A stretch of DNA of 17,519 bases from Octopus sinensis (GCF_006345805.1 NW_021824804.1:1-17519), one strand, 5' to 3'. Numbered from the stretch's first letter, positions 1,171 to 16,606 are shown. Notes: a model not told the origin generated them from the sequence alone. Made by a program: numbers and translations.

Positions 1171-1230
<60 letters not shown>

Positions 1231-1259
1231 CAATACATACATACATACACATACATACA

Positions 1260-1290
<31 letters not shown>

Positions 1291-1293
1291 GTA
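1149..1293. repeat. Compound microsatellite (TG)n-(TA)n-(TACA)n
   Basis: Directly visible. Confidence 0.97.
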
Positions 1294-1451
1294 TATACTT
1301 ATTTCGATAGGTGAATGAATTGTCCTATGTTTACCGTCAGCATGGAAAATTCGATGAACCGATACCAGGGTAGCAAATTCACGTCAGAAACATGGTTGAA
1401 GCGACCTGTCCAAGGGTAGAAACTCCGGGTTCGTGTGCAGAAATTTGTGTT

Positions 1452-1688
1452 ATATATGAATAAATAAAAGAATGGAGTCGAACATTTTGTTTACCATGTA
1501 GGCAGTCATCGAAATTTTTGTTTGTCTTGTTGTTGAGAGAGGCTCCCTTTCTTTCCTGATGAGAAGATTGCATCTTGCACCCTTTATTCCTTTGGAATGA
1601 AACTATGTTGTCTTCGAAACATATGCCGAGAGTAAAGGAATTTTGCTAACATCTCCGTTCGACTCCATTCTTTTATTTATTCATTTAT
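1452..1688 (+). mobile_element. Short element with perfect 28-bp inverted termini and an internal hammerhead motif (Penelope-derived/retrozyme-like)
   Basis: ATGAATAAATAAAAGAATGGAGTCGAAC (1456-1483) is the exact reverse complement of 1657-1684; hammerhead core at 1546-1638. Confidence 0.65.
1546..1638 (+). ncRNA. Type I hammerhead ribozyme motif, one core substitution (GUC to GCC)
   Basis: Stem I CUUUC (1551-1555)/GAGAG (1628-1632), extendable by CCUUU/AAAGG; CUGAUGA 1556-1562; stem II GAAGAU/GUCUUC with inner hairpin UUUAUUCC/GGAAUGAA; GAAA 1616-1619; palindromic stem III CAUAUG; GCC at 1625-1627 where GUH is expected. Confidence 0.65.
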
Positions 1689-1724
1689 GTATATACTTAT
1701 GTACCAAGCTTTAAAAAAGTACTA

Positions 1725-1800
1725 GATTCGATTTTTTCGACTGAAACCCTTCAAGGCAGTGCCCCAAATTGGCTGCAGTCCAATAACTAAAACAAATAAC
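1725..1800 (+). mobile_element. 3' tail fragment related to SINE family B
   Basis: TCGACTGAAACC...GCAGTC...AAACAAATAA resembles the family B tail at 3586-3637 and the reverse-strand tail at 15992-16055. Confidence 0.5.
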
Positions 1801-8840: not shown

Positions 8841-9220
8841 AGGCGGCGAGCTGGCAGAATCGTTAGCACGCCGGGCGAAATGCTTAGCGGTATTTCATCT
8901 GCCGCTACGTTCTGAGTTCAAATTCCGCCGAGGTCGGCTTTGCCTTTCATCGTTTCGGGGTCGATTAAATAAGTACCAGTTACGCACTGGGGTCGATATA
9001 ATCGACTTAATCTGTTTGTCTGTCCTTGTTTGTCCTCTTTGTGTTTAGCCCCTTGTGGGTAGAAAAGAAATAGGTATTCCGTCTGCCGCTACGTTCTGAG
9101 TTCAAATTCCGCTGAGGTCGACTTTGCCTTTCATCCTTTCGGGGTCGGGGTCGATATAATCGACTTAATCCGTTTGTTTGTCCTCTCTGTGTTTAGCCCC
9201 TTGTGGGTAGTAAAGAAATA
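8841..9220 (+). mobile_element. tRNA-derived SINE family A, 1.6-mer, with perfect 17-bp TSD
   Basis: TSD GATATAGTACGAGCCAA at 8824-8840 and 9221-9237; A-box-like TGGCAGAATCGTTAG; B box GAGTTCAAATTCC; second partial unit 9073-9220. Confidence 0.93.
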
Positions 9221-9242
9221 GATATAGTACGAGCCAATATAA

Positions 9243-11860: not shown

Positions 11861-12339
11861 TATATTAAAGAAATGAGGTACTCAGAAATTCGGATGGTTT
11901 TATATTTACAGATATTTATTTGTATATTACATGTTTTTATACATCATATATCATATAACATATATAGCGATTTCGTCCATTCTAGTAGAGTTTTCAATTT
12001 GAACTAAGTTCTTGGGGAAAATTTGACTATTTTTATAGTGTATTGAGTGTGTAGTGGTGGGGAGAGATATAAGATAGTACAAGACAGTACACTTTCACAG
12101 CATTCATCACCCTCTTGTACTATCTTATATCTCTCCCCACCACTACACACTCAATAACACTATAAAAATAGTCAAATTTTCCCCAAGAACTTAGTTCAAA
12201 TTGAAAACTCCACTAGAATGGACGAAAGCCCTAATATATGATATATGATATATATTGTATAAGAACATGTAATATACAAATAAATATCTGTAAATACAAA
12301 ACCATCCGAATTTCTGAGTACCTCATTTCTTCTAATATA
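11861..12339. mobile_element. Near-perfect long fold-back element: about 225-bp arms, 28-nt spacer, inserted in (TA)n
   Basis: 11861-12084 is the reverse complement of 12113-12339 with few differences; spacer CAGTACACTTTCACAGCATTCATCACCC at 12085-12112. Confidence 0.9.
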
Positions 12340-13282: not shown

Positions 13283-13642
13283 TTGCTGTTTAACCACAGG
13301 CAAACTTTGAGTCAACAGGCAGGATAACTCATCAAATGTGTTCCCTTGCATGACCGTTCTCCCTTTTTATTCAGGCATCGTATAATCTAACTACTTCGGT
13401 GTAGTAGTAGTAGTAGGCGAGCTGGCAGAAACGTTAGTACGCCGGGCGAAATGCGTAGCCGTATTTCGTCTGCCGTTACGTTCTGAGTTCAAATTCCGCC
13501 GAGGTCGACTTTGCCTTTCATCCTTTCGGGGTCGATAAATTAAGGACCAGTTACGCACTGGGGTCGATGTAATCGACTTCATCTGTTTGTCTGTCCTTGT
13601 TTGTTCCCTCTGTGTTTAGCCCCTTGTGGGTAGTAAAGAAAT

Positions 13643-13679
<37 letters not shown>

Positions 13680-15991: not shown

Positions 15992-16606
15992 TCTTTCATC
16001 TTTCACTTGTTTCAGTCATTAGACTGCGACAATGCTGAGACACCACTTCGAAGGACTTTTATTCGAATGAATCGGCAGCAGTACTATTTTTTTTAAGCCT
16101 GGTACTTACGGCGAGCTGGCAGAAACGTTAGCGCGCCGGGCGAAATGCTTAGCGGTATTTCATCTGCCGCTACGTTCTGAGTTCAAATTCCGCCGAGGTC
16201 GACTTTGCCTTTCATCCTTTCGAGGTCGATTAAATAAGTACCAGTTACGCACTGGGGTCGATATAATCGACTTAATCCGTTTGTTTGTCCTTGTTTGTCC
16301 TCTCTGTGTGTAGCCCCTTGCGGGCAGTAAAGAAATAGTTACTTACTCTATCGGGTCTTTTATCAAACCGATAGGTTACGGGAACGTAAACACACCAACA
16401 CCAGTTATCAAGCGGTAGAGGGGTCCAAGCTCAGACACAAAGACACACACAGATATGTGTGTGTGACGGGCTTCTTTCAGTTTCCATCTACCAAATCCAC
16501 TCACTAGGTTTTGGTCGGCTCGAGGCTATCATAGAAGCCAGTTGCCCAAGACGTCGCACAGGGGGACTGAACCCGAAACCATGTGGCTAGGAAACAAACT
16601 TCTTTA
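15992..16606 (-). mobile_element. SINE family B, near full length, interrupted by a nested family A copy
   Basis: Tail 15992-16109 and body/head 16338-16606 join into a sequence colinear with 3178-3640. Confidence 0.85.
16110..16337 (+). mobile_element. SINE family A monomer nested in family B
   Basis: Near-identical to 8841-9072; flanked by GGTACTTAC (16101-16109)/GTTACTTAC (16338-16346). Confidence 0.92.

What the first reader, a model, noticed from the sequence alone, without database searches (positions are those of the whole stretch)
1452..1688. 237-bp element: perfect 28-bp inverted termini around a nearly complete type I hammerhead
The best-formed example. All three stems can be drawn, stem III is the palindrome CAUAUG typical of dimer-acting minimal hammerheads, and loop II carries an extra hairpin. 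The only core defect is U16.1 to C (GCC for GUC at 1625-1627). It would be classed as a MITE by structure alone; the ribozyme points to an RNA intermediate.
Basis: partly seen in the sequence, partly recalled or inferred. Interest (0 to 1): 0.75.

Follow-up and report, generated by a model that had tools for sequence, protein, structure and literature searches.

The report
Penelope-like retroelement stub with hammerhead
This stretch is the inner part of a 383-base insertion made of two oppositely oriented tail pieces of a Penelope-like retrotransposon; it carries that family's hammerhead ribozyme motif with one private base change that likely disables it, so it is an ordinary member of a known kind of repeat, not a new MITE-like element.

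Summary
The described features are real: 32-nt inverted arms (28 perfect), a CUGAUGA...GAAA hammerhead core, palindromic stem III, and GCC in place of GUC. It is not a 237-bp unit, though. Only 2 places in the genome carry this arm/unit junction. 38 of the 40 best copies match only 1485-1688, and most run on upstream into a ~3.4-3.7 kb element. [quoted passage not shown]

In the window the left arm reaches back to 1303 (inverted 149-nt tail plus 32 nt). The right arm is a tail-less 3' fragment. A 15-bp target duplication brackets 1303-1685. This is a head-to-head, dead-on-arrival insertion of the kind described for PLEs.

T at 1626 occurs in 40 of 40 aligned copies, and exact 29-mers count 468 (GUC) against 3 (GCC). 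The hammerhead stems covary across sister subfamilies (9 of 21 pairs). So this is a genuine PLE hammerhead, likely inactivated in this copy.

It is a known kind and of modest interest. Cleavage is untested. A sister lineage with core U4-to-C reached at least 427 copies, so catalysis may be dispensable for spread.

The parts
1200..1287 (.). (AT)n/(ACAT)n microsatellite, the target context of the insertion
   Evidence: Direct-repeat families D1/D2. Most copies of the family also abut (TA)n.
1288..1302 (.). Left copy of the 15-bp target-site duplication TATGTATATACTTAT
   Evidence: Exact direct repeat D3, 1288-1302 = 1686-1700. The neighbouring bases differ on both sides.
1303..1451 (-). Inverted 'tail': the last ~150 nt of the element's long 3' end (end of the pLTR)
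   Evidence: Its reverse complement aligns with the sequence that follows the unit in 18 of 30 copies, up to the shared end ...CACCTAT.
1452..1483 (-).
   Evidence: It is contiguous with the inverted tail.
1484..1484 (.). Junction base between the two arms. Both arms would give G here; the A is possibly a decayed CpG (inference).
   Evidence: Comparison of the arm end and the unit start with other copies.
1485..1685 (+). Direct 3' fragment of the element (hammerhead unit), ending at the short, tail-less 3' end
   Evidence: 38 of the 40 scored genomic copies match only query 30/34/35-236/237. 12 of 30 copies end at this short end.
1546..1555 (+). Hammerhead stem I, 5' strand
   Evidence: Pairs with 1628-1638. 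MFE folds and pair counts.
1556..1562 (+). Core C3-A9 (CUGAUGA)
   Evidence: Across 14 aligned rows, C3, G5, A6, G8 and A9 are invariant, U4 is C in one row (L053), and position 7 varies U/A/C.
1563..1615 (+). Stem II: 12-position helix 1563-1574 with 1604-1615, enclosing the 8-bp hairpin 1583-1590/1594-1601
   Evidence: 7 of its 12 pairs show changes on both sides among subfamilies. The hairpin appears.
1616..1619 (+). Core G12 A13 A14 A15.1 (GAAA)
   Evidence: Invariant in all 14 rows.
1620..1625 (+). Stem III, self-complementary CAUAUG (too short for a stable hairpin in a single copy)
   Evidence: Self-complementary in every subfamily, counting G-U pairs: CAUAUG, CAUG, CAUGUG, CACGUG.
1626..1627 (+). 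C1626 (U16.1 mutated) and C1627 (H17); the predicted cut is after 1627
   Evidence: T at 1626 in 40 of 40 other aligned copies. 468 GTC against 3 GCC exact 29-mers genome-wide.
1628..1638 (+). Hammerhead stem I, 3' strand
1686..1700 (.). Right copy of the 15-bp target-site duplication
   Evidence: D3.

Best explanation
Window 1303-1685 is a 383-bp insertion, flanked by a 15-bp target duplication, made of two oppositely oriented 3'-end fragments of a Penelope-like retrotransposon, and the 237-bp 'element' is only its inner part. It was likely laid down in one integration in which reverse transcription was primed from both cut DNA strands. Its hammerhead motif, which likely self-cleaves only as a dimer in intact copies, is predicted to be dead here because of a private U16.1-to-C change.

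Shown:
- The parent element is ~3.4-3.7 kb. [quoted passage not shown]
- In a sister subfamily it has pseudo-LTRs that each carry the hammerhead.
- Copies show variable 5' truncation and frequent inverted 5' arms.
- There are two alternative 3' ends ~150 nt apart, both abutting (TA)n.

Inferred:
- The nuclease nicks TA-rich DNA on both strands.
- One cDNA started at the long 3' end and stopped after 181 nt; it became the left arm.
- The other cDNA started at the internal AUAU site and stopped after ~201 nt; it became the right arm.
- The two cDNAs were joined at a CG microhomology.

In the parent RNA the hammerhead sits 58-61 nt upstream of the short 3' end. Following the published proposal for PLEs, it would trim multimeric or read-through transcripts when two copies pair through the palindrome ACAUAUGU, probably helped by the element's protein. 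The window copy has no ORF and only one ribozyme, which is mutated. It is a fossil.
For: 1. Not a fixed unit. 38 of the 40 scored copies match only query 30/34/35-236/237. The arm/unit junction occurs at 2 places in the genome. Arm lengths range from 32 to 607 nt, or there is no arm.

2. Continuity with a long element. Flanks are conserved upstream in 24 of 30 copies. 5' ends are scattered over at least 1.7 kb.

3. ORF.
- YRDD and DKT motifs, and an IYQ...YIG...R...H...E...N nuclease pattern with CxxC and CxH.
- AlphaFold model of the 787-aa ORF: the RT core has pLDDT ~90 and the top 7 PDB hits are all telomerase TERT, best 3du5_A at E=7.7e-9.
- Pfam RVT_1 E=8.9e-4. Pfam GIY-YIG matches 4 of 6 ORF C-termini, best E=5.7e-4.
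- Atlas neighbours carry HTH_animal/DUF8422/GIY-YIG.
- The RT family has at least 8075 first-look candidates, with open frames up to 923 aa.

4. PLE layout in sister copy L050. Inverted arm, direct 442-bp pLTRs 98.4% alike, and a hammerhead in each pLTR.

5. Window anatomy. The inverted tail aligns to the family's long 3' end, and there is a 15-bp exact duplication.

6. Head-to-head bias. Among the first 100 of 468 places, 15 neighbour pairs lie within 3 kb: 11 (-,+), 1 (+,-), 3 same-strand.

7. Hammerhead.
- T at 1626 in 40 of 40 copies; 468 against 3 exact 29-mers.
- 92.8% of cells paired against 35-57% with slid partners; 9 of 21 pairs changed on both sides; covariation 0.358 against 0.216 +/- 0.021 shuffled, 0 of 500 shuffles as high.
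- The MFE folds of four diverged copies all give stem I plus a long stem II.

8. Literature.
- min-HHRs in PLE repeats, often single or paired on opposite strands, with a palindromic helix III and weak activity as dimers (PMC4209133, parts 1-2 of the text read).
- Inverted 5'-truncated copies, the tail, and the Hydra clade with (TA)n targets and HHRs (PMC8557442, passages and section 11 read).
- Both strands cut and extended, two internal RT start sites, and a protein-assisted HHR (PMC11167929, main text read).
Against: - No Rfam hammerhead model matches the window, L020 or L052, even at E<=10.
- No Pfam family reaches its cut-off, and three intact or long ORFs give no RT or GIY-YIG hit at all.
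- PDB sequence profiles find nothing.
- The optional 3' piece is ~150 nt here, not the 30-40 bp 'tail' of the literature.
- Hydra-clade hallmarks are only partly present: RWK reads RWL, and the CxCx5C linker is absent.
- L002 has nearly the same arm length and junction as the window. Two independent events would rarely give that, so a copied composite is not excluded.
- Fold energies of the window's own family are not unusual (z -0.39 and -0.81).
- RNAalifold on the closer set prefers another fold.
- A two-copy cofold does not pair the palindromes in its MFE.
- A sister lineage with core U4-to-C has 427 exact copies against 91 with U, and has intact ORFs. So ribozyme catalysis may not be needed for spread.
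- Cleavage has not been tested for any copy.
Confidence: 0.85

Rival explanations
1. A MITE: a non-autonomous DNA transposon of 237 bp, defined by 28-32-bp terminal inverted repeats and moved by a transposase. The hammerhead-like letters would be incidental.
For: The inverted arms are real, and the size is MITE-like.
Against: - 38 of 40 scored copies lack the left arm.
- This junction occurs only twice in the genome.
- The left arm continues for 149 nt more as inverted element sequence.
- The 15-bp duplication lies outside 1452-1688, at 1288-1302 and 1686-1700.
- The unit is continuous with an RT-nuclease ORF in other copies.
Confidence: 0.02
2. A small non-autonomous retroelement in its own right. 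Either the 204-nt hammerhead unit is made from its own sub-genomic RNA (retrozyme- or SINE-like), or the 383-bp composite was itself transcribed from the minus strand and copied again through its tail. The window and L002 would then be sister copies.
For: - 6 of 30 copies begin within 4 nt of the same unit start.
- L002 shares the window's architecture, with junctions 3 nt apart.
- The minus-strand RNA of the composite would end in an intact tail (inference).
Against: - 5 of those 6 copies carry an inverted arm, which points to a junction hot spot rather than a separate RNA.
- No tandem arrays: 1 (+,+) pair among 15 neighbour pairs.
- Only 2 composite copies exist, and they share no flanks.
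- Other junction hot spots exist inside stem II.
Confidence: 0.08
3. The insertion is as described, but the hammerhead-like fold is not a working ribozyme in this family. It would be kept as a structured 3' element (for protein binding or RT positioning), and cleavage would play no part in the life cycle.
For: - The sister lineage with core U4-to-C has 427 against 91 exact copies and intact ORFs.
- No Rfam match.
- Published PLE hammerheads cleave poorly in vitro (PMC4209133). In the anole PLE, catalytic mutants did not change insertion in vitro and no RNA-seq reads ended at the cut site (PMC11167929).
Against: - Apart from U4 in the L053 row and U16.1 in the window row, the core positions are invariant in the 14 aligned rows, while the one position that hammerheads leave free (7) varies U/A/C.
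- H17 is C or A in the 14 aligned rows, never G.
- Stem III stays self-complementary through four different sequences. A mere protein-binding stem would not require that.
Confidence: 0.25
4. Two separate insertions: one fragment landed first and a second fragment later inserted next to it in the opposite orientation.
For: The family is very abundant and prefers (TA)n, so repeated hits at one microsatellite are conceivable.
Against: - One 15-bp duplication brackets the whole composite, and neither arm alone has one.
- The arms meet 5' end to 5' end with no target DNA between them.
- Neighbour pairs are (-,+) in 11 of 12 opposite-strand cases. Independent hits would give both orders equally.
Confidence: 0.04

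Closest known systems
Minimal type I hammerheads of Penelope-like elements (Cervera and de la Pena 2014, PMC4209133; Lunse et al. 2017 seen only as a title in reference lists)
   Same: - Type I topology with an open helix I.
- G10.1-C11.1 pair and a long helix II.
- A tiny palindromic helix III that points to action as a dimer.
- Location in the element's terminal repeat.
- Mostly single motifs in truncated copies, or pairs on opposite strands 100-700 bp apart.
   Different: - No extra nucleotide between A9 and G10.1.
- Helix II is far longer: 12 positions plus an 8-bp distal hairpin, 53 nt in all.
- Helix I is long (10 pairs).
- The window copy has C at 16.1.
Hydra clade of C-terminal-EN Penelope-like elements (Craig et al. 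2021, PMC8557442, section 11)
   Same: - Single ORF with RT followed by GIY-YIG.
- DKT instead of DKG.
- CxxC and CxH around the nuclease E and N residues.
- Canonical hammerhead present.
- Insertion into (TA)n.
- Aquatic-invertebrate-type relatives at 31-39% identity that carry RWK and CxCx5C.
   Different: - RWK reads RWL.
- The CxCx5C linker is replaced by an N/S-rich low-complexity stretch.
- Elements are 3.4-3.7 kb, not under 3 kb.
- No phylogeny was made here.
Anole Poseidon PLE (PAc) studied in vitro (Frangieh et al. 2024, PMC11167929)
   Same: - Two alternative cDNA start sites downstream of the hammerhead.
- AT-rich targets.
- Both DNA strands cut and extended, which would give head-to-head copies.
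   Different: - The two 3' ends lie ~150 nt apart here; PAc's tail is the sequence between its two RT start sites, and that paper and Craig et al. give the PLE tail as 30-40 bp.
- Both ends here sit at UAU(AU) next to (TA)n, so microhomology with the target is possible. PAc initiates without homology.
- Nothing was tested biochemically here.
Metazoan non-LTR retrozymes (Cervera and de la Pena 2020, PMC7229834, passages; Li et al. 2026 preprint, abstract only)
   Same: Type I hammerhead in a short AT-rich repeat, probably derived from PLE terminal repeats.
   Different: Retrozymes are head-to-tail arrays of 150-450-bp monomers that give circular RNAs. This family is dispersed, continuous with an ORF, and head-to-head rather than tandem.
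MITEs
   Same: Short, non-coding, with inverted ends in this one copy.
   Different: The inverted ends are not a family feature, there is no DNA-transposon-type duplication at the arm ends, and the origin is a retroelement.

Membership tests
Hammerhead ribozyme, type I | Conserved core C3 U4 G5 A6 N7 G8 A9, G12 A13 A14, A15.1-U16.1, H17, in the family at large | tested here: met
   Across 14 aligned rows, C3, G5, A6, G8, A9, G12-A14 and A15.1 are invariant. U4 is C in one row (L053), U16.1 is C in the window row only, and position 7 varies. 468 GUC against 3 GCC exact 29-mers.
Hammerhead ribozyme, type I | The same core in the window copy | tested here: not met
   C at 1626 where U16.1 is required; private to this copy among 41 aligned. 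That U16.1 is required is recalled knowledge (the NUH rule). A search for a source found none in the library.
Hammerhead ribozyme, type I | Three helices around the core, helix I open, supported by covariation | tested here: met
   92.8% of cells paired against 35-57% slid; 9 of 21 pairs changed on both sides; 0 of 500 shuffles reach the score. MFE folds of 4 copies agree on stems I and II.
Hammerhead ribozyme, type I | Match to a curated Rfam hammerhead model | tested here: not met
   0 hits at gathering score in the window. No hammerhead hit at E<=10 in window 1400-1750, L020 or L052. The 53-nt helix II and the 6-nt helix III are probably outside the models (inference).
Hammerhead ribozyme, type I | Site-specific self-cleavage | not testable with these tools
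   The runs found are contigs only, and their RNA status is a guess.
PLE-type minimal/dimeric hammerhead | Palindromic positions 15.2-16.2 and loop 3 | tested here: met
   CAUAUG, CAUG, CAUGUG and CACGUG are all self-complementary, counting G-U pairs.
PLE-type minimal/dimeric hammerhead | Unpaired nucleotide between A9 and G10.1 | tested here: not met
   CUGAUGA is followed directly by G10.1, which pairs with C11.1 (pair 26-82 is GC in 10 rows and GU in 4 of 14).
Penelope-like elements | Telomerase-like reverse transcriptase | tested here: met
   The first 7 Foldseek PDB hits are all TERT, best E=7.7e-9. YRDD motif. Pfam RVT_1 is only E=8.9e-4, below its cut-off.
Penelope-like elements | GIY-YIG endonuclease in the same ORF | tested here: inconclusive
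   Pfam GIY-YIG matches 4 of 6 C-termini, best 20.6 bits against a cut-off of 22.6. The motif pattern aligns with the homologues. The nuclease-only model had pLDDT 50.8 and was not searched.
Penelope-like elements | Pseudo-LTRs, an inverted 5'-truncated copy at the 5' end, and heavy 5' truncation | tested here: met
   L050: direct 442-bp repeats plus an inverted arm. L052: 379-bp inverted arm. Scattered 5' ends. (-,+) bias of 11 of 12.
Penelope-like elements | Optional 30-40-bp 'tail' at one end | tested here: inconclusive
   Two alternative 3' ends exist (12 short, 18 long of 30), but they lie ~150 nt apart.
Hydra clade of PLEs | DKT motif; CxxC and CxH in the nuclease; (TA)n targets; hammerhead present | tested here: met
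   DKT in 5 of 5 ORFs that cover the region (L041 starts downstream of it). CxxC and CxH in 6 of 6. (TA)n flanks.
Hydra clade of PLEs | RWK motif, CxCx5C linker, length under 3 kb | tested here: not met
   RWL in the 3 ORFs that cover the site. No CxCx5C in 6 of 6 genome ORFs, although 6 of 7 database homologues have it. Units are ~3.4 kb (L052) and ~3.7 kb (L050).
Hydra clade of PLEs | Placement inside the clade in an RT phylogeny | not tested
MITE | Terminal inverted repeats shared by all copies, with uniform length | tested here: not met
Metazoan non-LTR retrozyme | Head-to-tail arrays of 150-450-bp monomers, each with a hammerhead | tested here: not met
   1 (+,+) and 2 (-,-) neighbour pairs among 15, with irregular spacing of 256, 766 and 860 bp.

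The most novel reading that the evidence does not exclude
The fixed 5' end at the 1485-equivalent position, seen in a fifth of the copies, marks a dedicated short RNA made from a promoter inside the pseudo-LTR. The element would then make its own ~200-350-nt hammerhead-bearing, tail-ended template. Two such RNAs, held together by the palindromic stem III, would be copied from both cut strands at once. Head-to-head stubs like this one would be the normal product of a dimeric template rather than an accident.
Probability: 0.1. Interest if true: 0.55.

Novelty: new member of a known kind. Interest (0 to 1): 0.25.

Why it matters
For annotation: repeats of this shape should be masked as truncated Penelope-like insertions, not called MITEs or new ribozyme elements.

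For PLE biology, this genome offers a large, young family: at least 468 near-identical hammerhead copies and at least 8075 RT candidates. It has clean head-to-head insertions, two well-defined 3' ends at (TA)n, and a sister lineage that spread with a non-canonical core (U4-to-C). That material bears on two open questions: what the PLE hammerhead is for, and how inverted PLE structures arise. The window copy itself is a dead fragment.

Tried and rejected
- Rfam: nothing at gathering score; no hammerhead at E<=10.
- Pfam on long or intact ORFs: no RT or GIY-YIG hit, and none on the 6 database homologues scanned.
- PDB sequence profiles of the ORF and of its C-terminus: nothing useful.
- Nuclease-only AlphaFold model: pLDDT 50.8, too poor to search.
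- RNAalifold on the closer 14-row set gave a different consensus fold. I kept the hammerhead because the wider set supports it and single-sequence MFE folds give stems I and II.
- Two-copy cofold did not show the stem III duplex.
- Expression: no RNA holder listed. All 22 runs are Logan contigs and their RNA status is a guess. Laying 4 of them gave fragmentary repeat contigs and no table of molecule ends. Nothing is concluded from it.
- Earlier notes of this scan: none for this genome or sequence.
- A source for the U16.1 requirement was not found in the library.
- Rejected readings: MITE, retrozyme array, two separate insertions (see rivals).
- One search failed on a gap wider than allowed and was replaced by a script. 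That script found no second convincing hammerhead in the window.

Full report
**Observation.** The window holds inverted arms at 1452-1483 and 1657-1688 (32 nt, 97% complementary, 173 nt apart). The one mismatch lies near the outer end, so the perfect part is 28 bp.
- CUGAUGA at 1556-1562.
- GAAGA (1563-1567) paired with UCUUC (1611-1615).
- GAAA at 1616-1619.
- The palindrome CAUAUG at 1620-1625.
- GCC at 1625-1627 where GUC is expected.
- A 10-pair stem I, 1546-1555 with 1628-1638.

'Loop II' contains an 8-bp hairpin.

**It is not a 237-bp unit.**
- A search of the window's own 2.7-Gb genome gave at least 2005 first-look candidates. Of the 40 scored, 38 match only query positions 30/34/35 to 236/237, that is window 1485-1688 without the left arm. 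Only the window itself and one other place (L002) match end to end.
- The junction between the 32-nt arm and the unit start occurs at exactly 2 places in the genome.
- Other copies have no inverted partner, or partners of 122, 131, ~195, 204, ~326, 379 or 607 nt.
- In 24 of 30 copies the sequence upstream of the 1485-equivalent position is also conserved. Pairwise comparison shows 5' ends scattered over at least 1.7 kb. This is the 5'-truncation pattern of a retroelement.

**The parent element.**
- Upstream of the unit lies an ORF with a YRDD motif and a C-terminal IYQ...YIG...R...H...E...N pattern.
- Pfam sees it only weakly: RVT_1 at E=8.9e-4, and GIY-YIG in 4 of 6 C-termini, best 20.6 bits against a cut-off of 22.6. 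Three intact or long ORFs give no RT or GIY-YIG hit.
- An AlphaFold model of the 787-aa ORF of L052 has an RT core at pLDDT ~90. Its first seven Foldseek hits in the PDB are all telomerase catalytic subunits, best E=7.7e-9. A telomerase-like RT is the hallmark of Penelope-like elements (PLEs).
- The RT family has at least 8075 first-look candidates in the genome, with open frames up to 923 aa.
- Seven database homologues (31-39% identity) carry RWK, DKT, CxCx5C, CxxC and CxH. Craig et al. 2021 list these as the marks of the Hydra clade of PLEs, together with canonical hammerheads and insertion into (TA)n (PMC8557442, section 11).
- The genome's own ORFs keep DKT, CxxC and CxH. They read RWL for RWK, and they have lost the CxCx5C linker to an N/S-rich stretch.
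- A sister copy, L050, shows the textbook PLE layout: an inverted arm, direct 442-bp pseudo-LTRs 98.4% alike, the ORF between them, and a hammerhead in each pseudo-LTR.

I therefore file the family as a PLE, probably Hydra-like. The clade is untested by phylogeny.

**Anatomy of the window copy.** The family has two alternative 3' ends. The short one ends in ...TTCATATAT. The long one is ~150 nt further and ends in ...CACCTAT. Both usually abut (TA)n. Of 30 copies, 12 are short and 18 are long.

In the window:
- The reverse complement of 1303-1451 aligns with that ~150-nt tail up to its end. The left arm is therefore 181 nt of element sequence (1303-1483), with its 3' end facing left.
- The right arm, 1485-1685, is a tail-less 3' fragment with its 3' end facing right.
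- An exact 15-bp direct repeat, TATGTATATACTTAT, lies at 1288-1302 and 1686-1700 and brackets the whole.

The insertion is thus 1303-1685, 383 bp, at the edge of an (AT)n/(ACAT)n microsatellite.

**How it likely arose (inferred).** Each arm has its own 3' end joined to target DNA. The arms meet 5' to 5', and one duplication flanks both. This fits one integration in which cDNA synthesis started on both cut strands.

Frangieh et al. 2024 showed that a purified PLE protein cuts and extends both strands, and that it starts reverse transcription at two internal sites whose spacing explains the 'tail' (PMC11167929, main text).

The orientation bias supports a mechanism rather than chance. Among the first 100 of 468 hammerhead places, 15 neighbour pairs lie within 3 kb. 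Of these, 11 are (-,+), 1 is (+,-) and 3 are same-strand.

[quoted passage not shown] Cervera and de la Pena 2014 noted paired min-hammerheads 100-700 bp apart on opposite strands, and many single motifs in truncated PLEs.

**The hammerhead.**
- T occupies the 1626 position in 40 of 40 other aligned copies.
- Genome-wide, the exact 29-mer around the site occurs 468 times with GTC and 3 times with GCC, the window included. The defect is therefore private and post-dates the family's consensus.
- Across the 14 rows aligned from this family and its sister subfamilies (alignment A4), C3, G5, A6, G8, A9, G12-A14 and A15.1 are invariant. U4 is C in one row (L053), and position 7, the one free core position, varies U/A/C. 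U16.1 is changed only in the window, and H17 is C or A.
- The named stems pair in 92.8% of cells, against 35-57% when partners are slid. 9 of 21 pairs show changes on both sides (30 cells). The covariation score is 0.358, against 0.216 +/- 0.021 in shuffles, and 0 of 500 shuffles reach it.
- Stem III changes from CAUAUG to CAUG, CAUGUG or CACGUG and stays self-complementary. That is expected if two copies pair there to build a stable helix III.
- The MFE folds of four diverged copies all give stem I and a long stem II around an open core.

**Against the hammerhead as a working ribozyme.**
- Rfam's hammerhead models do not match.
- The window family's fold energies are not unusual (z -0.39 and -0.81).
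- RNAalifold on the closer set prefers another fold.
- A two-copy cofold does not pair the palindromes.
- A sister lineage with intact ORFs carries C at core position 4 in 427 exact copies, against 91 with U. Either C4 is tolerated, or catalysis is not needed for spread. The second reading fits the in-vitro result that catalytic mutants of the anole PLE insert normally.
- No cleavage data exist for this family.

**What is unresolved.**
- L002 has the same architecture as the window, with junctions 3 nt apart, unrelated flanks and only 93% identity. This is either a recurrent junction or a copied composite; I could not tell which.
- The 5' junctions cluster at the unit start (6 of 30 copies) and inside stem II. 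The cause is unknown.
- The runs found are contigs whose RNA status is a guess, so nothing can be said on expression or RNA ends.

**Verdict.** The sequence features are real. The MITE-like look is an accident of a head-to-head PLE insertion. The ribozyme motif is a genuine family feature that is likely dead in this copy. This is a new member of a known kind, of modest interest. The family as a whole, rather than this copy, is useful material for PLE mechanism.

Noticed in passing
L053:3721-3835 and L054:3950-4064 (sister subfamily); genome-wide counts: The sister PLE lineage has CCGAAGAG (core U4-to-C) in 427 exact copies, against 91 with CUGAAGAG, and has intact ORFs of 778 and 854 aa. It is a natural test of whether the hammerhead core is needed for spread. 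CpG decay could also turn CCG into CTG, so the direction of change is open.
   Followed up: partly
L032 (G000:C2:173505105-173512104), e.g. from 1840 on the + strand: A different hammerhead-like motif (CUGAUGA ... GAAAC GUAC GUU, with a palindromic 4-nt stem III). One form occurs 4 times in the locus, first seen on the + strand; a one-letter variant occurs twice, first seen on the - strand. It may belong to another PLE or retrozyme family.
   Followed up: no
window 8844-9076, 13416-13647, 16109-16341: Three copies (92-94% alike) of a ~232-bp repeat whose start looks tRNA-like, probably a tRNA-derived SINE. A partial fourth copy sits at 9073-9225.
   Followed up: no
window 11861-12339: A 487-bp near-perfect palindrome (91%) that ends in (TA)n. 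It has no hammerhead letters. It may be another head-to-head insertion of a different repeat.
   Followed up: no
L002 (G000:C2:165527178-165527417 and flanks): The only other copy with the window's architecture: inverted tail plus ~30 nt, then a tail-less unit. Its junction differs by 3 nt, and its hammerhead has GUG (H17 = G).
   Followed up: partly
ORFs of L041, L048-L052, L055: A long asparagine/serine-rich low-complexity stretch (modelled at pLDDT below 50) sits between the RT and the nuclease, where database homologues have a CxCx5C zinc-finger linker.
   Followed up: partly
L061, L062, L064 (G000:C3:127275300-127276900, C2:69001800-69003700, C1:47893800-47894700): Head-to-head and more complex arrangements whose inner junctions fall at about the same place inside hammerhead stem II. 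This is a second junction hot spot besides the unit start.
   Followed up: partly
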